Numbered from the stretch's first letter, positions 35,837 to 52,920 are shown. The stretch: 64,000 nucleotides of DNA from Candidatus Xenobia bacterium (GCA_045863235.1 BTUM01000001.1:320001-384000), one strand, 5' to 3'. The notes: generated by a model not told the origin, from the letters alone. A program made the numbers and translations.

Positions 35837-37981
35837 TTGGGTGAACATCAGGCCATAAACTCCATCCTGGAGCTCACCGGTCAGCAGGTGACCGAGGTTG
35901 GGCTGATCCCCCTGTTCCCACTGCTGGCCTTCGTCCTGATCACTCTGGTGACGCTGCGCTGGGGGCGGCTCTCGGCGGCCCTGTCGATCCTGGCGATCTC
36001 CTCGTCACTGGTCCTGTCGACCCGGCTTTTCCTGGGCCGACTGCACGGACCCGACCAGGTAGCTCAAGTCGACTTTTCCTGGATCGACCTGGGTTGGGCC
36101 AGTGTCGAGATGGGCCTGCTGGTGGACAACCTGTCGGCCACCATGCTGATCATGGTCTGCTTCATCGCCCTGCTGATCCAGATCTATTCCTTCAGCTACA
36201 TGGAGACCGAGATTCACCACTTCCCCACCCAGGGCTCTGCCTCGCTCTCACGCTTTTATGCCTATATGTCCCTGTTCGCGTTCTCCATGCTGGGCCTGGT
36301 GCTCTCCACCAACCTGCTTCAGATCTACGTCTTCTGGGAGCTGGTGGGGGCCTGCTCCTTCCTGCTGGTTGGTTTTTGGTACTTCAAGACCAGCGCCACC
36401 CAGGCTTCCAAGAAGGCCTTTGTCGTTACGAAATTCGCCGACCTCTTCTTTCTGATGGGCATCTTGATGCTGGGTACCAAGCTCGACACGTTCGACTTCG
36501 TGTCCATCAATTCCAGCGTGAGCCTTTCAGCCGTCTGGCAGCAAGGCTATCTGCCCCTGGCGGCGGTGCTCATCTTCTGTGGAGCCATCGGCAAGAGCGC
36601 CCAGTTCCCGCTTCAGGTCTGGTTACCGGACGCGATGGAAGGCCCGACACCGGTGTCCGCCCTCATCCACGCAGCCACCATGGTTGCCGCTGGAGTCTAC
36701 CTGGTGGCCCGTATGTTCCCAGTTTTCGACGTGGCCATCCTGGCTGGCGGGACGGTGGCAGCCATCGGCGCCCTGACGGCTCTCCTGGCGGCCACCATGG
36801 CCTGTGTGCAAAACGACGTGAAGCGGGTGCTGGCCTACTCGACCATCTCCCAGCTAGGCTTCATGATGGCCGCCCTGGGCTCGGGCGCCTACACAGCCGG
36901 AACCTTCCACCTGATCACCCACGCCTTCTTCAAAGCCCTGCTGTTCCTGGGCTCGGGTGCCGTGATCGTGGCCTGCCACAACCAGGACATGTGGACCATG
37001 GGGGGGCTGCGCAAGAAGCTCCCCATGACCAGCCTGGCCTTCGCAGCCGGTTGCCTGGCCCTGGCCGGCATTCCCCCTTTTGCGGGCTTCTGGTCCAAAG
37101 ATGAGATCCTGGCTGGCACTCACGGGGCGGTCCTGGTGGTGTTGGTGGTCGCCGCTTTCCTGACCGCGTTCTATGTCACCCGAATGTTCTGCATCACCTT
37201 TCTTGGCGAATTCCGCGGCCAGGAGCACGCCCCGGCCGATCTGGCCGGGCCCGTGCCTCCCGCTACCCTCACCCCTCCTATTGACCCTTCCTGGGAAGTC
37301 TTCACCTTCAAACCCGACTGGACCGAGGAGCGCGCCGTGACCGCCGGCGAGGGACTTCCGCCGGCCTGCCTGGGAGCCCACATGGAGCTGCACCCGGCTG
37401 GCCATCATGAGCCCCACGAAGTCAGCCCGATCATGTACGTGCCCCTGTTGATCCTGTCGCTCTTTGCCGCCTTCCTGGGTTTTGCCGGAATGCCCTGGGA
37501 CAACCTGTTCCACCACCTGATCAACAACCCTCACGAGCCAGAGCACGCCTTCCACGCCTCTATGATGGTCTTCTCGGTCCTGGTCGCACTCGGCGGTGTG
37601 GCCGCGGCCTGGAGCTACTTCGGGCGCGACCCGGTGGCAGGAGAGCGACGCTTGCGCGCCCAGCTCGGGCGTGTCTGGGTGCTCTGGCAACAGAAGTATT
37701 ACATGGACCACCTCTGGGCCTGGCTGCTTTCGGGGACCATGTACCTGGGCGCCCGCGTGGCCGCCTGGGTCGACGACAACATCGTGGATGTGGCCGTCAA
37801 CACCGTCGGGCAGTTGACCGTCTGGGCCGGCAACGAGCTTCGCAAGGAGCAAAGCGGTCGCATCCAGCAGTATCTGCTGCTCATCGTGCTGGCAACGCTG
37901 GTGCTGATCGTCGGGCTCGGCCTGGTGGAGCCTGAATTCGTGCTCCACCCCTTCCCCGGACTCCCGGGAGGTGAGCCATGA
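35837..37981 (+). CDS. nuoL: NADH-quinone oxidoreductase subunit L (start uncertain, possibly GTG 35888)
   Basis: WELVG, GKSAQFPL.VWLPDAMEGPTPVSALIHAATMV, HAFFKALLFL. Confidence 0.93.
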   Translation: MGEHQAINSILELTGQQVTEVGLIPLFPLLAFVLITLVTLRWGRLSAALSILAISSSLVLSTRLFLGRLHGPDQVAQVDFSWIDLGWASVEMGLLVDNLSATMLIMVCFIALLIQIYSFSYMETEIHHFPTQGSASLSRFYAYMSLFAFSMLGLVLSTNLLQIYVFWELVGACSFLLVGFWYFKTSATQASKKAFVVTKFADLFFLMGILMLGTKLDTFDFVSINSSVSLSAVWQQGYLPLAAVLIFCGAIGKSAQFPLQVWLPDAMEGPTPVSALIHAATMVAAGVYLVARMFPVFDVAILAGGTVAAIGALTALLAATMACVQNDVKRVLAYSTISQLGFMMAALGSGAYTAGTFHLITHAFFKALLFLGSGAVIVACHNQDMWTMGGLRKKLPMTSLAFAAGCLALAGIPPFAGFWSKDEILAGTHGAVLVVLVVAAFLTAFYVTRMFCITFLGEFRGQEHAPADLAGPVPPATLTPPIDPSWEVFTFKPDWTEERAVTAGEGLPPACLGAHMELHPAGHHEPHEVSPIMYVPLLILSLFAAFLGFAGMPWDNLFHHLINNPHEPEHAFHASMMVFSVLVALGGVAAAWSYFGRDPVAGERRLRAQLGRVWVLWQQKYYMDHLWAWLLSGTMYLGARVAAWVDDNIVDVAVNTVGQLTVWAGNELRKEQSGRIQQYLLLIVLATLVLIVGLGLVEPEFVLHPFPGLPGGEP

Positions 37982-39501
37982 GCGACTGGCCTGTGCTCAG
38001 CCTCATGGTCTGGGCTCCCTTGCTGGGGGCCATCCTCATCCTGGGCAGCCCGGCCTGCTGGGTGAAGGGCATTCAACGCCTGGGGGTGGTCTTCGCGAGC
38101 CTGCCTCTGCTGCTGGCGCTGCCGATGTACGTGAACTTCTGGCAGGCTCCCGCCACAGGTTACCGCTGGGTGGAAGACGTTCTCTGGTTTGCCCCCTTGA
38201 ACATCCACTACAAGCTCGGGGTGGACGGACTGTCCATGCCCATGCTGCTTTTGAGCGGAATCGTTTGCTGCACGGCCGCCTTCATCTCGCTGCAGATCGA
38301 TTTCCGCCATCGAGAGTATTTCGCCCTCGCTCTCACGGCCATGACCGGCGTGCTTGGCGTTTTCGCCACCACCGATCTCTTCTTCTTGATCTTGTTCTAC
38401 GAGTTGGCCTCCATCCCGATGTTTTTCCTGGTGGGCATCTGGGGCTCGGACAAGTCGGGCGACGGCAAACCGATCCACCGCCGCCAGGCGGCCATGAAGC
38501 TGCTGGTCTATCTGCAACTGGGCGGCGGGTTGGTCCTGATCGGCATACTCGGGCTCTACTTCCTGAGTGCTCAGTACTCACCCAATCAGACGTTTTCATT
38601 CGATCTCGAGGTGCTTCGCCAGATCCCACTGCCGATCGAAGCCCAGAAGATACTCTTCTTGATCTTCTTCATCGGTTTTGGCATCGAGGCCGGGCTGGTT
38701 CCCTTCCACACCTGGTTGCCGGAAGGCCACTCCTCGGCCCCCACCGCTCTGTCCATGTTGCTGGCCGGGGTGCTGCTCAAGATGGGCGGCTATGGTATCG
38801 TGCGACTGGGCTTCGACCTGTGTCCTCAAGCGGTGGCCGACTGGATGCCCATCTTCGCCGCCGTTGCAGTGGTCAACGTGCTTTACGGAGGGCTTTGCGC
38901 TCTGCGCCAGTCCGACATCAAGGTCATGATCGCCTACAGCTCAGTGAGCCATATGGGCATGGTTTTTCTGGGCCTGGCGGCCATGACGGGTGAATCTCGC
39001 TCGGCCCTGTTCGGGCTCACGGGAGCCGTCTTCCAGATGTTCTCGCACGGCATCATCACGGCTCTTCTTTTCGCCCTGGCCGGCACGGTCTACCACATCA
39101 CCCACAGCCGCAACCTCAAGCAGTGGGGAGGGCTGGCCGCCCGCATGCCTTTCCTGGCGACCCTCTTTGCGGTGGGAGCCATGGGCTCGCTTGGTCTGCC
39201 CGGAATGACCGGCTTTGCAGCCGAGCTGATGGTCTTCCTGGGCTCCTGGCCGGCCCGGCCGGGTCTGACGGCCCTGGCGATCTGTGGGCTGGTGATCACC
39301 ACGACCTACATGCTCCGTTCGCTGGGATACGGTTTCTTCGGACCCCTGAACCCTCGCCTGATTGGAGTGCGCGACGCCCTCTGGTGGGAGCGCCTGCCCC
39401 TGATGCTGCTGGCTCTGACCACCCTCGCTTTCGGCTTCTATCCGGTGCTGCTCACGGCTGTGACCAGCCCCACTCTGCAGGATCTGGTGAACCGTGTCTA
39501 A
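37978..39501 (+). CDS. nuoM: NADH-quinone oxidoreductase subunit M
   Basis: LGVDGLS, PFHTWLP, LLKMGGYG, AYSSVSHMG, LGLPG..GF.AE. Confidence 0.93.
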   Translation: MSDWPVLSLMVWAPLLGAILILGSPACWVKGIQRLGVVFASLPLLLALPMYVNFWQAPATGYRWVEDVLWFAPLNIHYKLGVDGLSMPMLLLSGIVCCTAAFISLQIDFRHREYFALALTAMTGVLGVFATTDLFFLILFYELASIPMFFLVGIWGSDKSGDGKPIHRRQAAMKLLVYLQLGGGLVLIGILGLYFLSAQYSPNQTFSFDLEVLRQIPLPIEAQKILFLIFFIGFGIEAGLVPFHTWLPEGHSSAPTALSMLLAGVLLKMGGYGIVRLGFDLCPQAVADWMPIFAAVAVVNVLYGGLCALRQSDIKVMIAYSSVSHMGMVFLGLAAMTGESRSALFGLTGAVFQMFSHGIITALLFALAGTVYHITHSRNLKQWGGLAARMPFLATLFAVGAMGSLGLPGMTGFAAELMVFLGSWPARPGLTALAICGLVITTTYMLRSLGYGFFGPLNPRLIGVRDALWWERLPLMLLALTTLAFGFYPVLLTAVTSPTLQDLVNRV

Positions 39502-41029
39502 CGAGCTTTTCACCCAGGTTGCCCAGCTGGTCGCGCCACTCTCGCCCGAGTTCTGTCTATTGCTGGCAGCTCTTTCGGCCCTGGTCATCGACATGGTTGA
39601 CCAGCGTTCCGTGCGCCAGATTCGGATGGTGGTCTGGGTAGCCAGCCTGGCGGCAGTCTTCTGCAGCCTGGCCTTGATGGTCAGCCCTCTGCCGATCCAC
39701 CTGTTCGCTCGCCAACCGGCCACAGAGCTGGGAGTGGCTCCCTCGTCCTACGTGGTGGATAGCCTGGCACTCTCTCTCAAAGCCCTGATCGGGCTGCTCA
39801 CAGCCCTGGCCGTCTGGCTGTCGGAAGATTCCTTCGATGAGGAGCGCTCCAACACCGGCGAGTACTACAGCCTGATCGCCTTCGCCGGGCTGGGCATGAT
39901 GGTGGCCGTCTCGGCCAACGAGTTCCTGACCTTCTTCATCGCCTTCGAGCTCTTCTCGATTCCTCTCTACGCCCTGGCCGCCATTCGCCGTTATCGTTCC
40001 GAGTCAGCCGAGGCAGGCTTGAAGTACTTCCTGGCCGGTTCGGTCTCCTCAGCCCTGATGCTGTTTGGAATCAGCTGGGTGTACGGTAGTCTCGGGACCA
40101 CCTACTTCAGCGAGTTTCCCACGCGTTTTGCGGAAGTGGCCAGCATGCCCCACGCCCTGCTCGTCGGAGTGCTCATGATCCTGGCCGGGCTGGCCTTCAA
40201 GATGGCTGCGGCCCCTTTCCACATGTGGGCCCCTGACGTCTACGAAGGTGCTCCCCCCACAGTGGTGGCTTACCTCTCCTCGGCTCCCAAGGCGGTTATC
40301 ATCGGTTTCTGCCTGCGGCTCTTCTGGGCCGACCTTGACCTCGAGAGCGACCTCCTGCGAGTCAGCCTGGCCGATGGTTGGATGCTGGTGTTCGCGGTGC
40401 TCTCCTTGTTGTCGATGTGCCTGGGCAACCTGATGGCCCTGCCTCAGGTGAGCCTCAAGCGTATCCTGGCTTACTCCGGCATCGCCCAGATCGGGTACCT
40501 CCTCATCGGCGTGACTGCGGCGGGCGGTCTGACCGGCACCATGGCGGCAGGAGCCACCCTGTTTTATCTCTGGATCTACTGCCTGACCAATCTGACCAGT
40601 TGGGCTGCCCTGGTGGCCTGTTTGCCCGCCAACAGCACGTACCAGCGCAGTGAGCTGGCCGGGCTGGCTCAACGAAATCCCTTCATCGCCTTCGTACTGC
40701 TGATCAGCTTCATGTCCCTGGCCGGGGTCCCCCCGCTGGCGGGCTTCGTCGGGAAATTCTACCTCTTCCGAGCCATCTACTCAGCGGGCATGCCCTGGTT
40801 GGTCGTGGTCGGCGTGGTGAACTCGGTCATCAGCCTCTACTACTACTTTGGAGTGCTGCGCACCGCCTACTTTGACCCCCCGGCTCCGGATAGTCCGCCT
40901 ATCCGGGTCAAGCTGGGTGTGAAGGTAGTGCTGGTGATCGGCACAGCCGCCAGCTTGATACTCGGCCTCTGGCCCGGCTTCGCGCTTTGGAGCTTGGAGA
41001 CGGTCCAGACGCTTTTCGTGGGACAGTAA
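39494..41029 (+). CDS. nuoN: NADH-quinone oxidoreductase subunit N
   Basis: EAGLKYF, FKMAAAPFHMWAPDVYEGAP, KRILAYS, SLAGVPP. Confidence 0.94.
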   Translation: MSNELFTQVAQLVAPLSPEFCLLLAALSALVIDMVDQRSVRQIRMVVWVASLAAVFCSLALMVSPLPIHLFARQPATELGVAPSSYVVDSLALSLKALIGLLTALAVWLSEDSFDEERSNTGEYYSLIAFAGLGMMVAVSANEFLTFFIAFELFSIPLYALAAIRRYRSESAEAGLKYFLAGSVSSALMLFGISWVYGSLGTTYFSEFPTRFAEVASMPHALLVGVLMILAGLAFKMAAAPFHMWAPDVYEGAPPTVVAYLSSAPKAVIIGFCLRLFWADLDLESDLLRVSLADGWMLVFAVLSLLSMCLGNLMALPQVSLKRILAYSGIAQIGYLLIGVTAAGGLTGTMAAGATLFYLWIYCLTNLTSWAALVACLPANSTYQRSELAGLAQRNPFIAFVLLISFMSLAGVPPLAGFVGKFYLFRAIYSAGMPWLVVVGVVNSVISLYYYFGVLRTAYFDPPAPDSPPIRVKLGVKVVLVIGTAASLILGLWPGFALWSLETVQTLFVGQ

Positions 41030-41030
41030 C

Positions 41031-41381
41031 GTGGAACCGGAAGTCATGATCACCAGGAGTCTCTTCAGCCGGATGAAGGAGGAGGACTGCCTGCGTCCAG
41101 GCGACCGCGAAGCCGTCGCCTATCGCATTGCCGAGGTGATGGTCCTGGCCAAGCACCTCTACACGGAAGTGCTGCCTCGCCTGACGGGGGAATCGGAAGA
41201 GAGCCTTTTCGACGAGTTGGCCGGGCTCCGCATGGCGCTCTTGAATCTGCGGGATCTGGTCAGCGAGTATGATGAGGCCTTTCTGGAGGCCATGCACCAC
41301 CAGCGCGAGGACGATGCCCCACCCGACGAGGAAGACATACTCGGGGACGAGACGCGCGAGGAGCCCCTGAACGGAGCCTGA
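41031..41381 (+). CDS. Acidic helical hypothetical protein (116 aa)
   Basis: Starts 1 nt after the nuoN stop, with typical codon usage. Confidence 0.7.
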   Translation: MEPEVMITRSLFSRMKEEDCLRPGDREAVAYRIAEVMVLAKHLYTEVLPRLTGESEESLFDELAGLRMALLNLRDLVSEYDEAFLEAMHHQREDDAPPDEEDILGDETREEPLNGA

Positions 41382-41982: not shown

Positions 41983-42759
41983 TTGAGCCTCCTGATGGTG
42001 CTGGACATCGGCAACACCAACCTGGTTCTGGGTCTCTACCGAGGCGAGAAACTTGCCCATAGCTACCGACTGCACACCAACCGCCAGCAGACGGCCGACG
42101 AATACGGACTGCTGCTGAAAAGCCTGCTGGCCCAGACCGGGGCCACCCCCGACCAGGTCGAAGGGGTGGGAGTCTCCAACGTGGTGCCCGAACTGGCCAC
42201 CCGCATCGAGGAAGCCTGCCAGCGCTACCTGGGCCACCATCCCAGGTTCGTCAGTGCACGATTGGAGCTGGGCCTGACCCTGCAAGTCGATCGGCCCACC
42301 GAGGTCGGCGCCGACTTGATCGCCGGCGCGGTGGCAGCGCGGGAGCGCTGGGGTCTGCCGGTCGTGGTGGTCGACCTGGGCACGGCCACCACCCTCTCAG
42401 TCATCTCCTCCGAGGGCGCCTTCCTGGGCACGATCATCGCTCCCGGGCTGGAAATCTCGGTCGATGCGATCAGTCGCCGGGCCCCCCATCTTCCGGGCAT
42501 CCGCATGGAGCCTCCTCCCCGTCCATTCGGGACCAACACCGTACACAGCCTCCAGGCCGGGTTGGTGCTGGGTCACGTCGCCATGATCGATGGCCTGGTG
42601 GACCGCATCCGTGAGCACCTGGAACTGCCTGACCTCAAAGTGGGGGCTACCGGCGGCCTGGCCCCCCTGGTCTCGGGCCTGTCACGAACCATCAGCATGG
42701 TGGAGAGCGATCTGGTACTTGAGGGGATCCGCCTTTTGTATCGACGCAACGTTAGCTGA
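41983..42759 (+). CDS. coaX: Type III pantothenate kinase
   Basis: LDIGNTN, VGAD, VDLGTATT, IAPG, ATGG. Confidence 0.95.
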   Translation: MSLLMVLDIGNTNLVLGLYRGEKLAHSYRLHTNRQQTADEYGLLLKSLLAQTGATPDQVEGVGVSNVVPELATRIEEACQRYLGHHPRFVSARLELGLTLQVDRPTEVGADLIAGAVAARERWGLPVVVVDLGTATTLSVISSEGAFLGTIIAPGLEISVDAISRRAPHLPGIRMEPPPRPFGTNTVHSLQAGLVLGHVAMIDGLVDRIREHLELPDLKVGATGGLAPLVSGLSRTISMVESDLVLEGIRLLYRRNVS

Positions 42760-42804: not shown

Positions 42805-44085
42805 GTGACGCTAGAAGTGGCTCCGCATAGTCCCTGGCTGGACATCCACGAGATCTCGAGGCTGTACCGCGAGCATCTTAGCCCTGATCTGGCCCGCCTC
42901 ATCAAATTCAGCGGGCTCGGGACCATGGAGCAGAGCGCCTCGGGCTCGCTGGTGTGCGACCACGAGGGGCAAGAGTACCTCGACTTCGCCGGCGGATATG
43001 GCGTCTTCAACCTGGGGCACCGTCATCCCGAAGTGGTGGCGGCAGTTCAGGCTCAACTCGCGACCCAGCCCCTGTCGGCCCGGGTCTTCCTCAACCCGCT
43101 TCAGGCCCGCCTGGCAGGGGCTCTGGCCGAGGTCGCTCCCGGTCGCCTGCAGTACAGTTTCTTCGCCAACTCGGGCACAGAAGCCGTGGAGGGTGCTCTC
43201 AAGCTGGCCCGGCTGCACACCGGGCGACCCGGCTTCGTGGCCGCCGACCAGGCCTACCACGGCAAGAGCCTGGGCAGCCTGTCGGTTTCCGGACGCAAGA
43301 CCTATCGCGATCCTTTCGAGCCGCTCATCCCCGGAGTGAGCCACGTCCCATTCGGCGACCTGGCTGCCCTGGAGGAGGCCGTCACCGACCAGACCGCGGC
43401 CGTCATCCTCGAGCCCGTGCAGGGCGAGGGGGGAATCCATGTGGCACCCGAGGGCTATCTGGCCGGGGCCCGCGCTCTGTGTACCCGGAAGGGCTCCCTG
43501 CTCATCGCCGACGAGGTGCAGACAGGCCTGGGACGCACGGGACGAATGTTCGCCGTGGACCACTGGGGAGTGGAGCCCGACATCCTGGTCCTGGCCAAAG
43601 CCCTGGGCGGAGGGGTGATGCCCATTGGCGCTTTCATGGGAACACCCGAGGTCTGGCAGGCCTTCAAGGGCCGACCCCTCCTCCACACCAGCACCTTCGG
43701 CGGCAACCCCCTGGCCTGCGCCGCCGCCCTGGCCACCCTTAAGGTCCTGAGAAGGGACCGGCTGAGCGAGCGTGCCCGGGAACTGGGCGAACGCCTGCTG
43801 GCCGGACTCCAGAGCGTCTGGTCAGACTATCCCTGGTTGATCAGCCAGGTCCGGGGTCTGGGTTTGATGCTCGGCGTGGAGCTGCAAGAGGAAGCCTTCG
43901 GAGGCAGCTTCATTCTGGAGATGGCCAGGCAGCGAGTGATCGCCGTGCATACTCTGAACCAACCCCGGGTGATTCGCTTTGAGCCACCCCTCACGGTCAG
44001 CCCGGAGGAAGTCGACCGCTGCCTGGCTGCCTTCCGCGAGGCAGCTCGCCGCACGGCCGAGCGATTCGCTGCGAAGGAACGCTGA
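42805..44085 (+). CDS. Class III PLP aminotransferase (putrescine/acetylornithine aminotransferase-like)
   Basis: NSGTEAVE, YHGKS, EPVQGEGG, DEVQTGLGRTG, LAKALGGG, STFGGNP. Confidence 0.9.
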   Translation: MTLEVAPHSPWLDIHEISRLYREHLSPDLARLIKFSGLGTMEQSASGSLVCDHEGQEYLDFAGGYGVFNLGHRHPEVVAAVQAQLATQPLSARVFLNPLQARLAGALAEVAPGRLQYSFFANSGTEAVEGALKLARLHTGRPGFVAADQAYHGKSLGSLSVSGRKTYRDPFEPLIPGVSHVPFGDLAALEEAVTDQTAAVILEPVQGEGGIHVAPEGYLAGARALCTRKGSLLIADEVQTGLGRTGRMFAVDHWGVEPDILVLAKALGGGVMPIGAFMGTPEVWQAFKGRPLLHTSTFGGNPLACAAALATLKVLRRDRLSERARELGERLLAGLQSVWSDYPWLISQVRGLGLMLGVELQEEAFGGSFILEMARQRVIAVHTLNQPRVIRFEPPLTVSPEEVDRCLAAFREAARRTAERFAAKER

Positions 44086-44086
44086 C

Positions 44087-44530
44087 ATGCCCTACGTGGA
44101 GCGCAGCATCGTGATTTGCGGGGACATCGAGTCGGTCTACGCCCTGGCCAAGGACATGGAGCGCTATCCGGAATTCATGCCCGACGTGAAGAGCGTCAAG
44201 GTCATCTCCCGCGAGGGCAACACCACCCTGACCGAGTGGGTGACCAGCGTCGAGGGCACTCCCATCCTGTGGACCGAGAAGGATATCTTCGACGACCAGA
44301 ACCACCGCATCGACTACCGCCTGGTGGAGGGCGACCTGGACAAGTTCGAGGGCTCCTGGATCTTTCGCCCCACCAGGGTTGGGACCGAGGTGGTGCTGGG
44401 GGTCGACTACGACTTCGGAATTCCCGAGCTGACTGCCCTGATCGGTCCCACCTTGCAGGAGAAAGTGGGCGAGAACTCCGAGATGATGCTGCAGGGGATG
44501 AAGAAGCGCATCGAAGGGTCCGACCAGTGA
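44087..44530 (+). CDS. SRPBCC/START-like cyclase-dehydrase family lipid-binding protein
   Basis: DMERYPEFMPDV...WTEKD...EGDLDKFEGSW. Confidence 0.88.
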   Translation: MPYVERSIVICGDIESVYALAKDMERYPEFMPDVKSVKVISREGNTTLTEWVTSVEGTPILWTEKDIFDDQNHRIDYRLVEGDLDKFEGSWIFRPTRVGTEVVLGVDYDFGIPELTALIGPTLQEKVGENSEMMLQGMKKRIEGSDQ

Positions 44531-45630
44531 AACGATTCGCCTTCTTGATCCATCCCCTGGGCATCCAGGACGTGGTGCGCTACGCTCCTCGCGCGGCTGG
44601 CAAACGTGAAGCCCTGGTCGCCAAGATCCTGGAGTGGATGCCCCCGTACCAGGCCTCCACCATTACCGGCGTGCGCTCGGCGGCCACCGGCCAGGAAATC
44701 GTGGGAAACTTCGTGTGCATCCCCTTGCTCCCGGCCCAGTTCTTGCAGATGCAACGAAGCGAGGTGGAGCGACGTGTCCTGGAGGGAGCCAGGCTGGGCC
44801 AGGAGCTGGGCGCGTCGATGGTGGGGCTGGGAGGATACACTTCCGTGGTCGGTGGGGCGGGCCGGATGGTGGCCGACGACCTGCGCGCGGGCGTGACCAG
44901 TGGCAACTCCTACACCGTCAGCACAGCCATCGCAGGCACTCTGGAGGCCGCTCGCGCTCTCGATCTTGACGTTCGGGAAGCGAGCGTGGCCGTGGTGGGT
45001 GCCACCGGCTCGATTGGAAGCGTGTGCGCTCGGATTCTGGCCCACCAGGTCGGCCGTCTGGTTCTGGTGGCCCGTTCCAAGTCACGCCTGCAGCACCTGG
45101 CCGAAAGGATCCACCGCGAGAGTCGGGCGGCGGTGGGACTGGAAACCGACCTGGAACGGGGCTTGATGTCAGCCGACATCGTCATCAGCGCCACTTCCTC
45201 GGGAGGAGGCATCATTGCGCCCCACGCCCTCAAGCCGGGCGCCATCGTGTGCGACGTCGCCGTGCCTCACGACGTTTGTCGCGAGGTCGCGCGGGCCCGT
45301 CCCGACGTGCTTGTCATCGAGGGGGGCGTAGTCGAGGCTCCCGGCAACCCGGAGTTCAATTTCGACTTCGGCTACCCGCCCGGACTCTGCCTGGCCTGCA
45401 TGGCCGAAACCATGACCCTTACCCTCGAGGGACGGTCCGAGGACTACAGCATCGGACGAGGTCTGGCCTTCGAGCGAGTGGAGGAGATCGCCGCCCTGGC
45501 CCGCAAGCACGGATTCCGCCTGGCGGGGTTCCGAGCCTTTGACCAACCCGTGACCCGCGAGAAGCTCGACGAGGTTCGCTACGAACGGCAGAAGGCCTGG
45601 CGGCGTGGAATGGTCGTCCTGGGCGGGTGA
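44527..45630 (+). CDS. Long-chain acyl-ACP reductase-like NAD(P)H oxidoreductase (often annotated 'shikimate dehydrogenase')
   Basis: FAFLIHP, LGGYTSVV, TSGNSYT, VAVVGATGSIG, ACMAETM..LEG..YSIGR parallel cyanobacterial AAR motifs. Confidence 0.75.
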   Translation: MKRFAFLIHPLGIQDVVRYAPRAAGKREALVAKILEWMPPYQASTITGVRSAATGQEIVGNFVCIPLLPAQFLQMQRSEVERRVLEGARLGQELGASMVGLGGYTSVVGGAGRMVADDLRAGVTSGNSYTVSTAIAGTLEAARALDLDVREASVAVVGATGSIGSVCARILAHQVGRLVLVARSKSRLQHLAERIHRESRAAVGLETDLERGLMSADIVISATSSGGGIIAPHALKPGAIVCDVAVPHDVCREVARARPDVLVIEGGVVEAPGNPEFNFDFGYPPGLCLACMAETMTLTLEGRSEDYSIGRGLAFERVEEIAALARKHGFRLAGFRAFDQPVTREKLDEVRYERQKAWRRGMVVLGG

Positions 45631-46535
45631 GCCTGCGGCGAATCGTCAGCGTCAGCCTGGGTAGCTCGGAGCGCGACCACGAGGCAGAAACCGAGTTTCT
45701 GGGACAGCGCTTCTGGCTGCGCCGAGTGGGCACCGACGGCGACCTGGATCGGGCCCGCTCCCTGCTCGAGGAGCTGGATGGCACCGTGGACGCCATCGGC
45801 CTCGGGGGCATCGACGTCTACCTGCGCACTCGCCAGGAAACCTACACCTTGCGAGACGGATTGCGGCTCATGCAAGTGGTCAAGAAGACTCCGGTGGTGG
45901 ACGGGAGCGGGCTGAAGGACACGCTGGAGCGCTCAGCGGTGGAGTGGCTCGTGAGCGATGGTCGAGTCCCCCTGGCGGGGCGCAAGACTCTCATGGTGTG
46001 CGCGCTGGATCGCTTCGGGATGGCCGAGGCGCTCCACCAGGCCGGAGCCCGGGTGGTATTCGGGGACATGATCTTTACGCTGGGGGTGGACAAGCCGATC
46101 ACCAACCTGGAAGAGCTGGAGAGCTATGCCCGCAAGCTTTTGCCCGAGATCTGCAAGCTCCCCATCAGCCTGGTCTATCCAATCGGAAAAAAGCAGTCCG
46201 AGATCAGGCCGGATAGTCTGACTGGTCCCTACTACCAGGAAGCCGAAGTGCTGGCCGGCGACTTCCACTTTATCCGCCGTCGCATGCCTGAGCGGCTCGA
46301 GGGTAAGACGGTGCTGACCAACACCGTCACGGCCCGGGACGTGCAAGAGCTTCATCATCGAGGTGTGCACTGGCTGGTGACCACGACCCCGGAGCTGAGC
46401 GGGCGCTCGTTCGGCACCAACGTGTTGGAGGCAGCCCTGGTGGCCCTGGGAGGAGACTATGCCGATCTGATCGCCAGGCTGGGGCTCAAACCCAGGGTGG
46501 TCGATCTGAGGGAGGTCCCATCTTCGGCGCCTTGA
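45627..46535 (+). CDS. Conserved protein of the 'quinate 5-dehydrogenase'-annotated family, function unknown
   Basis: VSVSLGSSERDH, GTDGD, VVDGSGLK.TLE, DRFGMAEAL, GRSFGTNVLEA. Confidence 0.7.
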   Translation: MSLRRIVSVSLGSSERDHEAETEFLGQRFWLRRVGTDGDLDRARSLLEELDGTVDAIGLGGIDVYLRTRQETYTLRDGLRLMQVVKKTPVVDGSGLKDTLERSAVEWLVSDGRVPLAGRKTLMVCALDRFGMAEALHQAGARVVFGDMIFTLGVDKPITNLEELESYARKLLPEICKLPISLVYPIGKKQSEIRPDSLTGPYYQEAEVLAGDFHFIRRRMPERLEGKTVLTNTVTARDVQELHHRGVHWLVTTTPELSGRSFGTNVLEAALVALGGDYADLIARLGLKPRVVDLREVPSSAP

Positions 46536-46590
46536 GCAAGGTGCGACGAACCTGACAGGAAACCCCGCCATGGCTTGGAATTGCAGGCGG

Positions 46591-48093
46591 ATGTCCGAAG
46601 ATGAAACAACCCCGCCAACCGAGGAAGACGAAAGCGAGCACCAACGAGTCCGCCGGGCCAACCTGGAAGCTCTCCGGGACGCCGGAATGGACCCCTACGG
46701 CGAGCGATTTGACCGTTCCGCAACAGTTGCCGAGATCCAGCAACGTTACGCTGACCTGGAGCCCGACCAGCACGGAGGAGAGGCCCGACTGGCCGGCCGA
46801 ATCGCGTCCCAGAGAGGCCAGGGCAAAGTCATGTTCTGGGATCTCGTGGACGTCACCGGAAAACTCCAGCTCTATTTCAAGATCGATCTTTTGGCCGACA
46901 GCTACGAGTTGCTCAAGAAGGTCGACCTGGGTGACGTGCTGGGGGTCGAGGGCACGGTCTTTCGCACCCGTCGCGGTGAGCTGTCGCTCCAGGTCACCAG
47001 CTGGCGCGTCCTGTCCAAGGCGTTGCGGCCCCCACCCGATAAATGGAAGGGGTTGCGCAACGTCGAGCTCAAGTATCGGCAGCGCTACGCTGATCTGCTC
47101 CACAACGCCGACGTCCGTCAGACCTTCATCCAGCGCAGCCGGATCCTTTCGGCCATTCGACGTTACCTGGACGATCTAGGCTTCTACGAAGTCGAGACCC
47201 CCACCATGACCACGCTGGCGGGTGGGGCTGCGGCGCGTCCGTTCATCACCCACCACAACGCGCTCGACCTGCAGCTCTACCTGCGCATCGCCACCGAGCT
47301 CTACCTCAAGCGCTGCATCGTGGGAGGCCTGGAGAAAGTCTACGAGATCGGGCGCATCTTCCGCAACGAGGGCATCTCCACACGCCACAACCCCGAGTTC
47401 ACCATGCTCGAGCTCTACCAGGCCTACACCGACTACCACGGGATGATGGAGATTACCGAAGGCATCATCGACTGTGCCTGCCGGGAGGTGCTGGGCACCC
47501 ACCAGGTCGAGTTCGCAGGCCACTCCATCTCGCTTCTGCCGCCCTTCCGACGGGCGACCATGGATGAGCTGCTCAAGGAGCACGCGGGAGCCGGCGTCCA
47601 CGAGCTACGCGACGAGAAGAGACGCCGTGAGCTGGCCGAGAAGTTCGATGTGCATCTGCCCGTCAAAACTTCGCCCGGACACGCTATGGACAAGATTTTC
47701 GAAGCCACTGTGCAAGACCATCTGATCCAGCCGACCTTCGTGCTCGATTACCCGGTCGAGCTCTCGCCGCTGGCCAAGCGCCAGACCGAGGACTCTGGCC
47801 TGACCTACCGCTTCGAGCTTTTCTGCTGCGGCTCGGAGATCGCCAACGCCTTCTCCGAGTTGAACGACCCCGATGATCAGCGGGTGCGTTTCGAAGAGCA
47901 GCAAGCCCTCAAGGACGTGGACGAGGAGGCCCACCCACTGGATGAGGACTTCCTGACCGCCCTGGAGTATGGCATGCCCCCCACCGGAGGCCTCGGCATC
48001 GGCATCGACCGGCTGATCATGCTTTTGACCGGCAAACCATCCATCCGCGACGTCATCCTGTTCCCGCTGCTGCGGCCCCGCCAGGAGGGGTGA
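46591..48093 (+). CDS. lysS: Lysine--tRNA ligase (class II)
   Basis: YRQRY, GGAAARPF.TH, LRIATELYLKR, FRNEG, YGMPPTGG.GIDR. Confidence 0.98.
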   Translation: MSEDETTPPTEEDESEHQRVRRANLEALRDAGMDPYGERFDRSATVAEIQQRYADLEPDQHGGEARLAGRIASQRGQGKVMFWDLVDVTGKLQLYFKIDLLADSYELLKKVDLGDVLGVEGTVFRTRRGELSLQVTSWRVLSKALRPPPDKWKGLRNVELKYRQRYADLLHNADVRQTFIQRSRILSAIRRYLDDLGFYEVETPTMTTLAGGAAARPFITHHNALDLQLYLRIATELYLKRCIVGGLEKVYEIGRIFRNEGISTRHNPEFTMLELYQAYTDYHGMMEITEGIIDCACREVLGTHQVEFAGHSISLLPPFRRATMDELLKEHAGAGVHELRDEKRRRELAEKFDVHLPVKTSPGHAMDKIFEATVQDHLIQPTFVLDYPVELSPLAKRQTEDSGLTYRFELFCCGSEIANAFSELNDPDDQRVRFEEQQALKDVDEEAHPLDEDFLTALEYGMPPTGGLGIGIDRLIMLLTGKPSIRDVILFPLLRPRQEG

Positions 48094-49735: not shown

Positions 49736-49764
49736 ATTCTACCAGGACCGGAAAATTCTGTCAA
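49736..49764 (-). promoter_or_regulatory. Sigma70 promoter of rpsU
   Basis: TTGACA-17 nt-TAGAAT. Confidence 0.8.
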
Positions 49765-49801
49765 ACTGCTCACTGACCTCAGGACATGAGATATACCCGG
49801 T

Positions 49802-51262
49802 CTAGAAGCGTTTTCCTGCTCCCACCATCGGGATCCTGGTTCGTTCGGTCACGTCGCGCACCCCACCCATGATGTAGAAGTCACCCGGGAAGAGCACCTT
49901 GCCGGTGAGATCAAGCTGGGGATTCCGCGTGTTATAGGCATCCATGCTGAGCTCCACGCGCTTGTCGAACAGCCGAGCATCAGCCCCCACGCCAAACTGA
50001 GAGCGGATCACGCCGCCACGCAGTCGATATCGCGCGTCACTGAAGTTCTTGGAGCCCTGGACATTGATCAGGTTCGTCCGTCCAAGCGCGTCCACTCCCA
50101 CCTTGACCGACCAGGGCCCCTCCGGGAAGAGCATGGCATTCAAGTTCGTGAACGACTGCCCATCGTTGGTCCAGAACTCTTGCTCGACGTCTATCTGGCC
50201 AAGCCGTCCGGTCGTGCCATCGGTCAAGCCTTTGAATCGGCCCACCAACTCCTTGGCGCCGGCGCTGGCCTCCTTGGCGTTCTTGATGGTGTCGCGCAGG
50301 TCTTCTTGCACCTTCGGGTCGGCAGTGATCGAGCGAATGTCGCTGGCGATGCCGGCAACCTGCTCACTCATATTGCGCAGGTTGGACACGGTGGCCAGCA
50401 CGTCCGCTTTCAGGTCCTCGTTCGTGGCCAGGCTCTCCAGTGAGCTCATGGTCTTCTTCAGAGTAATCGAAGTCTCGCGCAGGTTCAGCACGATGGTATC
50501 GATATTGCCCCGATTGCCGGATACGACCGAACGAAGGTCGGAGGAGAAGCCGCGCAGGTTGGCTCCCACAACCTGGGCGTCGCCCTTGAAGCCCAGCACC
50601 GTCTCATCGACGTGAGCCACAACTGTCTCAACCGCGTTGCCCAGTCGCTCCACTCGCCCGTTCAGGGAGGCTACCAGCACCCGCGCATCCTTGCTGGCAC
50701 CCTTGAGATTGCCCGAGATGTCCTTGAAATTGGACATGGTGATCTTGATGTCGTTCTGGAAGCGCGGATCGGCCACCAGCGAGTTGAGAGCTTCCACCGA
50801 CTTGCGGAACTCCCCCATCACCTCGCTCCCTTCGCGGGCTAAATCATCAAGGGTCACCGGGGTCACCCCTTGCACCTCTTGATTCTCGGCCAACGGCTTG
50901 GCGTTGACGGGAACCGGGCCGGGCTGGATCTCGAGCCACTTGTCCCCCATCAGATTGCCGGTCACGGTATAAACATATCCCGTTTCCTTAGAAGGAAAGA
51001 GCACCACGTCCGGGCGTGTCACCAGAATGTGCACCAGCACGTCGTTCTGGTCGGTCAGCTCGAGATTGGCCACATAACCGACTTTCACCCCGGCGAGTTG
51101 CACAGGAGCGCGGTTCTGCAGCCCGGCAACCTCTTCGAAACGAACCACGTACTGCTTGCCGGCATCTCCCCCGGTCTTGCCGATCTGCGCGTAGATCAGG
51201 CCAAGGATCAGGGCCGCGAGGACCGCGATCATTCCTACTCTCGCTGCGGGGTTGATATCCAT
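49802..51262 (-). CDS. mlaD: Long MlaD/MCE protein with helical stalk and C-terminal beta-rich domain
   Basis: N-terminal TM, MCE motif (F..VAGL..APV.LAGVKVG.V, LMGDKWLEI.PG), long helical region, beta-strand C-terminus ending in F. Confidence 0.85.
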   Translation of the reverse strand: MDINPAARVGMIAVLAALILGLIYAQIGKTGGDAGKQYVVRFEEVAGLQNRAPVQLAGVKVGYVANLELTDQNDVLVHILVTRPDVVLFPSKETGYVYTVTGNLMGDKWLEIQPGPVPVNAKPLAENQEVQGVTPVTLDDLAREGSEVMGEFRKSVEALNSLVADPRFQNDIKITMSNFKDISGNLKGASKDARVLVASLNGRVERLGNAVETVVAHVDETVLGFKGDAQVVGANLRGFSSDLRSVVSGNRGNIDTIVLNLRETSITLKKTMSSLESLATNEDLKADVLATVSNLRNMSEQVAGIASDIRSITADPKVQEDLRDTIKNAKEASAGAKELVGRFKGLTDGTTGRLGQIDVEQEFWTNDGQSFTNLNAMLFPEGPWSVKVGVDALGRTNLINVQGSKNFSDARYRLRGGVIRSQFGVGADARLFDKRVELSMDAYNTRNPQLDLTGKVLFPGDFYIMGGVRDVTERTRIPMVGAGKRF

Positions 51263-51343
51263 CAAATCCTCCTGGAGGTCTGGCGCAACAGATTGTAGAG
51301 GTCCGGCCGCGCGACGACGTTCCCTCGGTTGTGGCGTGCGCGG

Positions 51344-52141
51344 TCATGCAACATGGATCGGCCCTGCCACTTTTCCATCGCGAAACTGTGCGATGAACTC
51401 ATTGGTCGTGGTGGTAAACTCCTGAGCTGTACCGATCCAGACGATCCTGCCCTCGTGCAGCATGCAGATTCGATGGCCCACCATCAAAGCACCCCGCAGA
51501 TCGTGGGTCACCACCACACAGGTGGCGTGCATGCGTTTCTGGACGTCCAGAATCAAGTCGCTGATCACGGTGGTGATGATTGGATCCAGGCCCGTCGTGG
51601 GTTCGTCATACAAGATGATGTCGGGATCGGTGGCAATGGTCCTGGCCAGGCTCGCGCGCTTTTGCATGCCGCCGGAAAGCTGATTGGGATAAAGATGCTC
51701 CACTCCCTCCAGATCAACGATTGCCAGCTTCTCGCTGACAATGCGAGAGATCTCCTCCTCGCTGAGTCGGGTGTGCTCGCGCAAGCCAAAAGCCACGTTC
51801 TCGCCCACGGTCATGGAGTCGAACAGGGCGGGCATCTGAAAAACCATGCCAACCCGCAAACGAAGCTCGTTCCATTCGTTGGGCCGCAACTCGGAGATGT
51901 CTCGCCCATTCACCAGGACCGTGCCCGAAGTCGGCTTCTGCAGCCCGACCAGGCAGCGCAACGTGGTGCTCTTGCCCACTCCCGATAGCCCCATGACAGC
52001 CAGTGTCTGGCCTCGGGGCACCTCAAAGGAGACGTTGGAGAGGATCTCTCGCCCACTGAAGGCCACCGTGAGGTTCCTGGCCACGATCGGCGGATCGACC
52101 AGCGGGGTGCGAGGGCCGGTAACGGGAGTGTTCGTGCTCAT
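51344..52141 (-). CDS. mlaF: MlaF-type ABC ATPase
   Basis: GLSGVGKS, ALFDSMTV.ENV, LSGGMQKR, YDEPTTGLDP. Confidence 0.92.
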   Translation of the reverse strand: MSTNTPVTGPRTPLVDPPIVARNLTVAFSGREILSNVSFEVPRGQTLAVMGLSGVGKSTTLRCLVGLQKPTSGTVLVNGRDISELRPNEWNELRLRVGMVFQMPALFDSMTVGENVAFGLREHTRLSEEEISRIVSEKLAIVDLEGVEHLYPNQLSGGMQKRASLARTIATDPDIILYDEPTTGLDPIITTVISDLILDVQKRMHATCVVVTHDLRGALMVGHRICMLHEGRIVWIGTAQEFTTTTNEFIAQFRDGKVAGPIHVA

Positions 52142-52920
52142 CAGTGCACCGGGAACAGCCAGGCCGACATGAAGTAGTTGGTGATGAAGATGATGATCAT
52201 CGCGACCACCACCGAGCCGGTCGTTGCCTGGCCCACACCGGCCGCTCCGCGAGGAGTATTCAAGCCCTGGTAACAAGCAACCAGGCACACCTCCATCCCG
52301 AATATCATGGCTTTGAACAGCCCCCGAAAGACATCGTCCATCTCCACCATGCGAGTGATCGAATCAAAGAAAGCCTCGTAGGGTACCCCGGCGGAATTCA
52401 TTGCCACCACCGCACCACCCACCACCCCTGAGAGGTTGGAGAAGAGTGTCAGGATCGGCATCATGATCAGCAGCGCAACGAAGCGCGGGACCACCAGATA
52501 TCCGACCGGGTTCACGGCCATGGTAATCAGGGCGCTGATCTGCTCGGTCACCTTCATGGTCCCGATCTCGGCCGTGATGGCCGCTCCTGCCCGCCCGGCC
52601 ACCACCACTGCGGTCAGCATCGGACCGAGCTCACGGCACATGGCCAGCGCCACGCCCCCTCCCACAACGTTGGACACTCCGTAACGAACGGCAATATGGG
52701 CCAGTTGCAGCGACATGACCATGCCCGCAAAGGTGGTGGTCATGATGACGATGCCGACCGAATTCACCCCCAGAAAAGCCATCTGCTGGATGGTCAGATT
52801 CAATCGGAGGGCACCACGCAGCAGAAATCCAAGCGCCTCCACGAGCAGCAGAACCAGGTTGCCCACATACTCGAAGAATCGAATCAGAGCCAGCCCCAGT
52901 ATTTCAAAGAGGGAGAACAT
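52141..52920 (-). CDS. mlaE: MlaE-type ABC permease
   Basis: RELGP..AGRAGAAITAEIGTMKVTEQI, GAAGVG.ATT. Confidence 0.94.
   Translation of the reverse strand: MFSLFEILGLALIRFFEYVGNLVLLLVEALGFLLRGALRLNLTIQQMAFLGVNSVGIVIMTTTFAGMVMSLQLAHIAVRYGVSNVVGGGVALAMCRELGPMLTAVVVAGRAGAAITAEIGTMKVTEQISALITMAVNPVGYLVVPRFVALLIMMPILTLFSNLSGVVGGAVVAMNSAGVPYEAFFDSITRMVEMDDVFRGLFKAMIFGMEVCLVACYQGLNTPRGAAGVGQATTGSVVVAMIIIFITNYFMSAWLFPVH

What the first reader, a model, noticed from the sequence alone, without database searches (positions are those of the whole stretch)
42805..46535. Four-gene unit that may synthesise long-chain alkylamine lipids
Seen: four tightly coupled ORFs (1-nt gap, GTGA overlaps). They encode a class III aminotransferase, an SRPBCC protein, a Rossmann reductase and an uncharacterised 'quinate dehydrogenase-like' protein. 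The reductase has TSGNSYT, VAVVGATGSIG and ACMAE..LEG..SIGR. Known: these parallel cyanobacterial acyl-ACP reductase (TTGNTHT, GATGDIG, catalytic Cys in ACFAE), which releases fatty aldehydes. Class III aminotransferases aminate terminal aldehydes, SRPBCC domains bind lipids, and Thermus/Deinococcus phosphoglycolipids contain alkylamines. Inference: acyl-ACP to fatty aldehyde to long-chain amine, with a lipid carrier and a partner subunit. The pathway would be hidden under 'shikimate/quinate dehydrogenase' labels. No aldehyde-deformylating oxygenase is present here, which argues against alkane synthesis.
Basis: partly seen in the sequence, partly recalled or inferred. Interest (0 to 1): 0.85.

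Follow-up and report, generated by a model that had tools for sequence, protein, structure and literature searches.

The report
Candidate fatty-amine lipid-tail gene set
Four tightly packed housekeeping genes, conserved across a whole bacterial phylum, likely turn a carrier-bound fatty acid into a long-chain amine, and they are good but untested candidates for the still unidentified enzymes that make the amine tail of the unusual membrane lipids of Thermus, Deinococcus and their kin.

Summary
The four ORFs are real and coupled as described. The reductase is an acyl-ACP-reductase-type thioester reductase, not AroE (fold Z 34.5 vs 14.5; Cys291 in 44/45). Reductase and aminotransferase match the two halves of PigE, and by the TamH paper of TamH, fusions shown to convert acyl-thioester to aldehyde to amine, so the chemistry is known. 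The aminotransferase lacks the putrescine-binding Gln and the ornithine-binding Arg. The fourth gene has no Pfam family in the library used. It is a distant reductase-fold paralog without the cysteine, fused to the reductase in 112/120 long homologs and present in 149/151 genomes of the host phylum (Vulcanimicrobiota) and 60/61 Armatimonadota. In 101 Bacillota-group genomes the three unlinked genes co-occur (59 all three, 23 none). Relatives occur in Thermus, Deinococcus and the phylum of Chthonomonas, all reported to make N-glyceroyl-alkylamine lipids, whose enzymes a 2022 paper calls unidentified. Product, chain length and lipid link are inferred. No Deinococcota genome could be read, and the Thermus SRPBCC ortholog has a tiny cavity. 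This scan noted the unit before on three other genomes. Verdict: new variant of a known kind.

The parts
42805..44085 (+). Class III PLP omega-aminotransferase of the YgjG/PigE branch; PLP lysine K265 (43597-43599); likely aminates the fatty aldehyde
   Evidence: (PatA model 492.7 bits, cut-off 612; PigE C-terminal half); co-occurrence; found fused to the reductase in ~890-aa proteins
44087..44530 (+). SRPBCC/START-fold protein; likely ortholog of T. thermophilus TTHA0849; possible shuttle for aldehyde or amine, or a small catalyst
   Evidence: 2d4r E 1.9e-27, next hit 8.6e-5; 58/61 Armatimonadota; one SRPBCC-reductase fusion
44527..45630 (+). Acyl-thioester reductase of the AAR/PigE-N/TamH-TR family; TSG 124-126, Rossmann G158-G164, catalytic Cys291 (45397-45399)
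   Evidence: AAR Z 34.5, rmsd 3.3, 325 aligned; AroE Z 14.5
45627..46535 (+). ORF4, labelled 'quinate 5-dehydrogenase' in databases: distant AAR-fold paralog with no conserved Cys and no GxxGxxG; invariant S10, R33, D147, N265 and near-invariant R16, D92, K97, R129, Y184, D212, K227, R260
   Evidence: (AAR Z 12.3, rmsd 4.7, 240 aligned; TAD Z 11.2)
41983..42759 (+). Type III pantothenate kinase coaX; conserved upstream neighbour, not part of the unit
46570..48093 (+). Lysyl-tRNA synthetase lysS; conserved downstream neighbour, not part of the unit

Best explanation
These four genes likely form a housekeeping pathway that converts a fatty acyl-ACP into a long-chain primary amine, probably the alkylamine tail of N-glyceroyl-alkylamine membrane lipids. 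Step 1 (inferred from homology to AAR, PigE-N and TamH-TR, with the catalytic residues present): Cys291 takes the acyl chain from the carrier, and NAD(P)H releases the fatty aldehyde. Step 2 (inferred from homology, fusion and active-site residues): the aminotransferase transfers an amino group, probably from glutamate or alanine as in TamH, giving R-CH2-NH2. The SRPBCC protein would bind or hand on the hydrophobic aldehyde or amine (weak inference). ORF4 acts with the reductase, either as a non-catalytic partner or, as I think slightly more likely, as a second enzyme on a phosphorylated polar substrate, such as the step that joins the amine to a glyceroyl unit (speculative). Odds: steps 1-2 on some acyl thioester about 0.8; the whole statement including the membrane lipid about 0.55.
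For: Both enzymes hit the single PigE model NF053554 (reductase E 1e-66 on positions 52-355; aminotransferase E 5e-128 on 378-733). PigE and TamH are reported to do thioester reduction then transamination (TamH makes C12 amine from C12-ACP with NADH and Glu). Natural aminotransferase-reductase fusions with intact Cys, Rossmann and PLP-Lys motifs occur in ORF4-bearing genomes. In 101 genomes of one Bacillota group, where the aminotransferase is mostly unlinked: 59 have all three genes, 23 none; 59/66 reductase-positive vs 5/35 reductase-negative genomes have the aminotransferase; 66/75 ORF4-positive vs 0/26 ORF4-negative have the reductase (kin are not independent). The aminotransferase keeps YgjG's narrow hydrophobic entrance (L384 37/37, L292, K154 36/37) but has K/R in 31/37 at the putrescine-binding Gln119 position. 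Mostly single copy, near-universal in two phyla (149/151, 60/61), among housekeeping genes: primary metabolism, not a secondary-metabolite cluster. Of 14 named control genomes the AAR model rings only in Synechococcus, T. thermophilus and D. radiodurans. T. thermophilus also has a PatA-like gene and the SRPBCC relative TTHA0849. Chthonomonas (Armatimonadota) phospholipids are all phosphatidylglyceroylalkylamines; Moorella thermoacetica has N-glyceroyl alkylamines; the Thermus enzymes for this third chain are stated to be unidentified.
Against: No assay, and no lipid analysis that names an alkylamine in any Vulcanimicrobiota: the one cultured member has only 'unidentified' polar lipids and glycolipids. 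This genome also has Psd-like and three CDP-alcohol phosphotransferase genes for ordinary phospholipids. PigE's substrate is a C8 thioester for a pigment, so the family does not fix chain length or purpose. The aminotransferase's best matches are putrescine aminotransferase; 5/37 relatives keep Gln, and a Lys/Arg there could equally bind a distal carboxylate or phosphate. TTHA0849 has a cavity of only ~18 A3, poor for a C16 chain. D. radiodurans did not ring for PatA at E 1e-115. ORF4, gene order and Cys could not be checked in any Deinococcota genome, nor were the named species Chthonomonas calidirosea or Moorella thermoacetica searched. In 12 Armatimonadota loci the aminotransferase and SRPBCC genes were never within 6 kb of ORF4. 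ORF4-reductase fusions are common in Chloroflexota, for which I found no report of alkylamine lipids.
Confidence: 0.55

Rival explanations
1. Same chemistry (acyl thioester to aldehyde to amine), but the product is another conserved amine, for example a shorter or functionalised one used in an envelope polymer, cofactor or small metabolite, not the N-glyceroyl-alkylamine lipid.
For: PigE acts on a C8 branched thioester; tiny cavity of the SRPBCC ortholog; basic residue at the distal site of the aminotransferase; ordinary phospholipid genes in the host; the family extends to Chloroflexota, Negativicutes and Marinobacter.
Against: The reductase is rare among the 14 control genomes and falls on the two known alkylamine-lipid makers; near-universal in the phylum of Chthonomonas; I found no other candidate product.
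Confidence: 0.22
2. Reductase and ORF4 supply fatty aldehyde for other lipids (alcohols, wax esters, long-chain diols, vinyl ethers), and the aminotransferase is a separately acting neighbour.
For: ORF4 and reductase are the tightest pair: fused in 112/120 and 119/120 long homologs and adjacent without the aminotransferase in 8/12 Armatimonadota loci and most Bacillota loci. Wax esters and diols in Chloroflexales and Thermus are recalled, not checked.
Against: Aminotransferase-reductase fusions and co-occurrence of the unlinked aminotransferase (59/66 vs 5/35).
Confidence: 0.11
3. A catabolic or polyamine route: the aminotransferase deaminates putrescine, cadaverine or alkylamines, and the 'reductase' runs backwards as an acylating aldehyde dehydrogenase.
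For: Closest characterised aminotransferase is E. coli YgjG/PatA (E 1e-125); amino-acid/polyamine permeases lie next to the unit in some soil relatives.
Against: Below the PatA cut-offs (492.7 < 612 and 443 < 659); Gln119 replaced by K/R in 31/37; near-universal single-copy retention in aerobes and anaerobes alike is unusual for a catabolic option; the characterised family members work in the reductive direction.
Confidence: 0.08
4. The database labels are right: shikimate/quinate dehydrogenases plus an acetylornithine aminotransferase; or the reductase makes alkanes as in cyanobacteria.
For: PF01488 hit on the Rossmann part; TIGR00707 at 387.7 bits is not far below its 410 cut-off; AroE-type folds appear at Z 8.5-9.6 for ORF4.
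Against: No shikimate-binding domain PF08501 on either ORF; a true aroE lies on contig C30; fold Z 34.5 AAR vs 14.5 AroE; Lys rather than the carboxylate-binding Arg; arg-operon ArgD genes group apart in a quick tree (weak support); no ADO.
Confidence: 0.02

Closest known systems
PigE (prodigiosin MAP branch; NF053554; PDB 4ppm)
   Same: Thioester-reductase domain and class III aminotransferase domain are the best characterised matches of genes 3 and 1 (E 2e-40 and 5e-93 by phmmer); same Cys, TSGN and Rossmann motifs.
   Different: One fused protein in a pigment cluster acting on a C8 thioester; here two genes, opposite order, housekeeping context, with SRPBCC and ORF4.
TamH (tambjamine YP1, Pseudoalteromonas tunicata; PMC9594044)
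   Same: TA-TR pair shown to make C12 amine from C12-ACP; the ~890-aa fusions in ORF4-bearing Bacillota have the same domain order.
   Different: Fused, in a secondary-metabolite cluster with its own ACP (TamA). I compared by the paper only; the TamH sequence was not in hand.
Cyanobacterial acyl-ACP reductase AAR (TIGR04058; PDB 6jzq/6jzy)
   Same: Same fold over the whole chain (Z 34.5); Cys291 aligns with Cys294.
   Different: Score 115.6 against cut-off 449.7; partner is an aminotransferase, not ADO; product amine rather than alkane (inferred).
E. coli putrescine aminotransferase YgjG/PatA (PDB 4uox)
   Same: Closest solved aminotransferase; shares Lys300, Glu243, Lys183, the Leu419 turn and a bulky residue at Phe327.
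   Different: Gln119 is K/R in 31/37 and Phe91 is Tyr in 35/37; below family cut-off.
Terminal amidation domain TAD (carmabin CarI; PDB 9e4s; bioRxiv 2024.10.28.620694)
   Same: AAR-fold relative proposed to form an amide; second fold match of both the reductase (Z 31.3) and ORF4 (Z 11.2).
   Different: TAD keeps the Cys and NAD site and showed no activity in vitro; ORF4 has neither Cys nor GxxGxxG, so TAD's proposed mechanism does not transfer.
TTHA0849, START-domain protein of T. thermophilus HB8 (PDB 2d4r)
   Same: By far the best PDB match of gene 2, full length.
   Different: Function unknown; cavity ~18 A3; its gene neighbourhood was not seen.

Membership tests
Shikimate/quinate dehydrogenase (AroE) | Shikimate-binding N-terminal domain PF08501 | tested here: not met
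   No hit on gene 3 or ORF4; the genome's PF08501 gene is at C30:43042
Shikimate/quinate dehydrogenase (AroE) | Closest fold is AroE | tested here: not met
   Gene 3: AAR Z 34.5, TAD 31.3, AroE 14.5. ORF4: AAR 12.3, AroE 9.6
AAR-type thioester reductase superfamily (gene 3) | Two-domain AAR fold, T-[TS]-G junction, GxxGxxG, Cys at the helix start | tested here: met
   T124 and G126 45/45, G158 and G164 45/45, C291 44/45; fold
Cyanobacterial AAR (TIGR04058) | Score over curated cut-off | tested here: not met
   115.6 vs 449.7 bits
Cyanobacterial AAR (TIGR04058) | ADO partner in the genome | tested here: not met
   TIGR04059 0 matches in a 97.6%-complete genome; control S. elongatus rings
PigE/TamH reductase-transaminase fusions | Homologous TR and class III TA domains | tested here: met
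   NF053554 halves; 4ppm
PigE/TamH reductase-transaminase fusions | One polypeptide, over family cut-off, in a prodiginine/tambjamine cluster | tested here: not met
   Two ORFs, 226 and 429 bits vs 850; neighbours coaX and lysS
PigE/TamH reductase-transaminase fusions | Converts acyl thioester to amine | not testable with these tools
   Needs an assay
Putrescine aminotransferase PatA | Cut-off, and Gln119 for the distal amine | tested here: not met
   492.7 < 612; R93 here, K/R 31, Q 5, H 1 of 37
Putrescine aminotransferase PatA | Leu419 turn, Lys183, bulky residue at Phe327 | tested here: met
   L384 37/37, K154 36/37, L292 31/37
Acetylornithine aminotransferase ArgD | Carboxylate-binding Arg at the Lys183 position, Gly at the Phe327 position | tested here: not met
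   K154 and L292; TIGR00707 387.7 < 410
Terminal amidation domain (for ORF4) | Invariant Cys and GxGxxG NAD site | tested here: not met
   No conserved Cys or glycine loop in 88 diverse ORF4 sequences; fold resemblance only
N-glyceroyl-alkylamine lipid pathway (genes unknown) | Genes present in known producers | tested here: inconclusive
N-glyceroyl-alkylamine lipid pathway (genes unknown) | Host makes the lipid; knockout removes it | not testable with these tools
   V. alpinus lipids are reported only as unidentified

The most novel reading that the evidence does not exclude
This is the missing pathway for the third, amine-linked tail of N-glyceroyl-alkylamine phospholipids: reductase and aminotransferase make the C14-C18 amine, and ORF4, an acyl-ACP-reductase fold that has lost cysteine and cofactor loop, is a new enzyme that couples the amine to a (phospho)glyceroyl unit. 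These lipids would then be the norm in Vulcanimicrobiota, Armatimonadota, many anaerobic Bacillota (gut Phascolarctobacterium included) and parts of Chloroflexota and Actinomycetota, not a Deinococcus-Thermus oddity.
Probability: 0.22. Interest if true: 0.85.

Novelty: new variant of a known kind. Interest (0 to 1): 0.62.

Why it matters
The enzymes that make the alkylamine chain of Thermus/Deinococcus phosphoglycolipids are stated to be unidentified (PMC9636437). This unit names specific genes to knock out in genetically tractable, harmless hosts, so an old question becomes directly testable. If right, it predicts an unusual membrane chemistry across several phyla, gives a gene marker for a lipid biomarker, corrects thousands of 'shikimate/quinate dehydrogenase' and 'serine carboxypeptidase' labels (7485 ORF4 relatives among 8000 candidates scored), and offers stand-alone, possibly thermostable enzymes for fatty-amine production.

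Tried and rejected
AroE, ArgD, classic PatA and alkane synthesis: rejected (see membership tests). ORF4-reductase kinship is invisible by sequence: BLASTP E 0.89, HHalign probability 0.3%, no PDB sequence hit under E 1; Foldseek gave only generic two-domain folds, TM at most 0.39. It rests on the VIA search alone, with modest Z. Complex prediction of reductase with ORF4 was not available, so binding is untested. A second PlsY in this genome was not found (1 copy). The PigE model at E 1e-50 rings in all 14 controls and is uninformative. Phospholipid-gene searches gave no support for an unusual membrane. The aminotransferase tree is a quick tree with weak deep support and one long-branch intruder, G000_C27. 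Bale et al. 2025 and Nakabayashi et al. 2005 were not held. Paper searches listed no paper assigning genes to alkylamine-lipid synthesis; I read listings only, and the library lacks most subscription journals.
Full report
OBSERVATION. The four ORFs, their coordinates, the 1-nt gap, both GTGA overlaps and the quoted motifs are in the sequence. Genes 2-4 are single copy in the genome, and gene 1 has only more distant class III paralogs (33-44% identity). They lie in a co-directional housekeeping run between coaX and lysS, with no promoter-like or terminator-like site at the borders; the 'unit' is defined by comparison. Named close relatives place the host in Vulcanimicrobiota/Eremiobacterota.

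GENE 3, THE REDUCTASE. NCBIfam ranks the PigE N-terminal half first (E 1e-66), cyanobacterial AAR second (E 3e-33, below cut-off), HemA 2e-13 and AroE models only 9e-7. PDB sequences give the same order. An AlphaFold model (pLDDT 93.9) matches AAR at Z 34.5 (rmsd 3.3, 325 aligned), TAD at 31.3 and AroE at 14.5. Cys291 aligns with AAR Cys294 and is kept in 44/45 relatives, as are the T-[TS]-G junction and the GxxGxxG loop. Arg183 after the second Rossmann strand matches AAR and suggests NADPH (inference). A true aroE lies elsewhere; ADO was not found.

GENE 1, THE AMINOTRANSFERASE. Best models are PatA (492.7 bits, cut-off 612) and the PigE C-terminal half; best structure is YgjG. Against the residues named in the YgjG paper (PMC4244111, passages), 37 relatives keep the PLP lysine, Glu208, the Leu384 turn (37/37), Lys154 instead of the carboxylate-binding Arg (36/37) and a bulky residue at 292. 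That excludes ornithine-type substrates. The Gln that holds putrescine's far amine is K/R in 31, Q in 5 and H in 1. This fits an unbranched aldehyde without a distal amine, but a basic residue there could also bind an acid.

KNOWN CHEMISTRY. TamH, a transaminase-reductase fusion, makes C12 amine from C12-ACP with NADH and Glu, accepts C7-C14 aldehydes and did not use C12-CoA (PMC9594044, parts 1-2 of 5). PigE is reported to reduce a thioester and transaminate the aldehyde (PMC8341465, part 1 of 2). Streptomyces does the same with an unrelated reductase, TabE, and TabA (bioRxiv 2025.08.11.669332, passages).

GENE 2. SRPBCC fold, strongly conserved. The best PDB match by 22 orders of magnitude is T. 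thermophilus TTHA0849. A 2026 review gives that protein no function and a cavity of ~18 A3 (PMC13525633, passages), which weakens the carrier idea unless the pocket opens. One of 120 long reductase homologs is an SRPBCC-reductase fusion.

ORF4. No Pfam, NCBIfam or PDB sequence match in the libraries here; the Atlas gives it bare accessions PF30885/PF30884 from a newer Pfam. Its model (pLDDT 92.6) has AAR as top match over its whole length among 48,161 chains (Z 12.3, rmsd 4.7, 240 aligned), then TAD 11.2, GDH 9.9 and AroE 9.6. Sequence methods do not see this kinship, so it is a moderate inference. Among 88 diverse members there is no conserved Cys and no glycine loop. An invariant Asn265 with Glu268 sits at a helix start, where the reductase has Cys291 and Glu294 (equivalence judged by eye from motif and secondary structure). 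A set of Arg, Lys, Asp, Ser and Tyr residues is near-invariant, which looks like a site for a charged, perhaps phosphorylated, ligand (inference). ORF4 is fused to the reductase in 112 of the 120 listed long homologs; from the other side 119 of 120 long reductase homologs carry it, 117 in one order and 2 in the other. In two Syntrophomonadaceae loci the gene after ORF4 has lost the motifs (one still scores as a reductase, one does not); the genome of the second carries an intact aminotransferase-reductase fusion, and ORF4 stays conserved. That suggests a job of its own beyond propping up the stand-alone reductase. TAD, the other AAR-fold relative, is proposed to form amides but was inactive in vitro and needs its Cys (bioRxiv 2024.10.28.620694, parts 1-3 of 5), so it is an analogy only.

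DISTRIBUTION. ORF4 is in 149/151 genomes of the host phylum (tally includes unpublished G127) and 60/61 Armatimonadota; the SRPBCC ortholog is in 58/61 of the latter. All four genes lie in order in 19/20 chosen phylum loci. Of the 80 best of 558 GTDB loci, 52 hold all four within 6 kb, 14 reductase plus ORF4, 12 ORF4 alone and 2 other subsets; some are cut by contig ends and most are Vulcanimicrobiota. Two Actinomycetota-labelled loci have all four in another order. In Armatimonadota ORF4 abuts the reductase in 8/12 loci and the other two genes are elsewhere. In 101 genomes of the Bacillota group of G152: ORF4 75, reductase 66 (all ORF4-positive), aminotransferase 64; 59 have all three, 23 none. 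About 15 of them carry 870-920-aa open frames that hold the reductase domain, 14 of which also scored as aminotransferase. These genomes are kin and the thresholds were mine (E 1e-10, 1e-25, 1e-120), so this is a pattern, not a test.

LINK TO LIPIDS. Thermus phosphoglycolipid carries an alkylamine on a glycero backbone, and the enzymes for this third chain 'have not been identified' (PMC9636437, passages). Chthonomonas calidirosea phospholipids all have a phosphatidylglyceroylalkylamine structure (meeting report PMC3367263, one passage). Moorella thermoacetica has N-glyceroyl alkylamines, and a 2025 paper title says they dominate several Bacillota (PMC13274423, table and reference; the paper itself not held). 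Among 14 named controls the AAR model rings only in S. elongatus, T. thermophilus and D. radiodurans. Against or neutral: V. alpinus lipids are unidentified (PMC9758169, passages); the host has ordinary phospholipid genes; I could not read any Deinococcota chromosome or search the named producer species; Chloroflexota, Phascolarctobacterium and Marinobacter carry ORF4 with no alkylamine report that I found. That Moorella belongs to the sampled Bacillota group is recalled, not shown.

EARLIER NOTES. The scan reached the same reading on three other genomes and flagged a PlsY-like/reductase fusion in Deinococcota. My reading was written down before the look-up. The fusion note prompted the PlsY check and the idea that ORF4 may stand in for that domain; I could not test the fusion.

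VERDICT. Real, conserved and mis-annotated. Shown: ORFs, motifs, families, fusions, synteny, co-occurrence. Predicted: folds. Inferred: acyl-ACP to aldehyde to amine (0.8), destination in N-glyceroyl-alkylamine lipids (0.55), amide-forming role of ORF4 (about 0.25). A split, housekeeping variant of the PigE/TamH system with two extra conserved proteins; interest 0.62 because it makes an open question directly testable.

Noticed in passing
L071, L092, L095, L098, L103, L107, L109-L111, L143, L144, L146, just upstream of ORF4; L084 between two ORF4 copies: In Bacillota and two Actinomycetota-labelled loci a conserved ~175-195 aa gene with an N-terminal helix-turn-helix-like part directly precedes or overlaps ORF4; absent from the window. 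A likely fifth component or regulator.
   Followed up: no
L117:166-2841, L125:64-2742, L120; about 15 of 101 genomes: TamH-order aminotransferase-reductase fusions of ~890 aa in anaerobic Bacillota, outside any tambjamine cluster that I saw, apparently replacing the split genes.
   Followed up: partly
L095:7052-8113, L107:6887-7816: The gene after ORF4 in two Syntrophomonadaceae loci lacks Cys, TxG and GxxGxxG yet stays an open frame; L095 still scores as a reductase (E 2e-24), L107 does not.
   Followed up: partly
H6-H30: 128 Ralstonia megaplasmids and a few Methylocystis, Leisingera and Paraburkholderia plasmids encode a related reductase domain, mostly inside genes annotated as aminotransferases.
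   Followed up: no
window 41031-41381: 116-aa acidic protein with no Pfam or NCBIfam family, with relatives near the unit in several genomes of the same class.
   Followed up: no
window 35837-41029: Three NuoL/M/N-like (Mrp antiporter-type) membrane subunits upstream in the same direction; read from the translations only.
   Followed up: no
window 49736-52920 (- strand): MlaE/MlaF/MlaD-like lipid-transport genes (MlaD by Pfam) converge on the run; a near-consensus sigma-70 site (TTGACA-17-TAGAAT) lies at 49764-49736 just past them.
   Followed up: no
L033, L061, L049, L063, L092: Record titles (Burkholderiales, Rhodospirillales, Verrucomicrobiia, Sumerlaeota) disagree with gene content that matches Vulcanimicrobiota or Bacillota; probably mislabelled bins. 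G158 (L092) falls in the GTDB phylum of G152.
   Followed up: no
window 46535-46570 versus L014, L020, L024, L025, L026, L029: Most relatives have greA between ORF4 and lysS; the window's genus and some close kin have lost or moved it.
   Followed up: no
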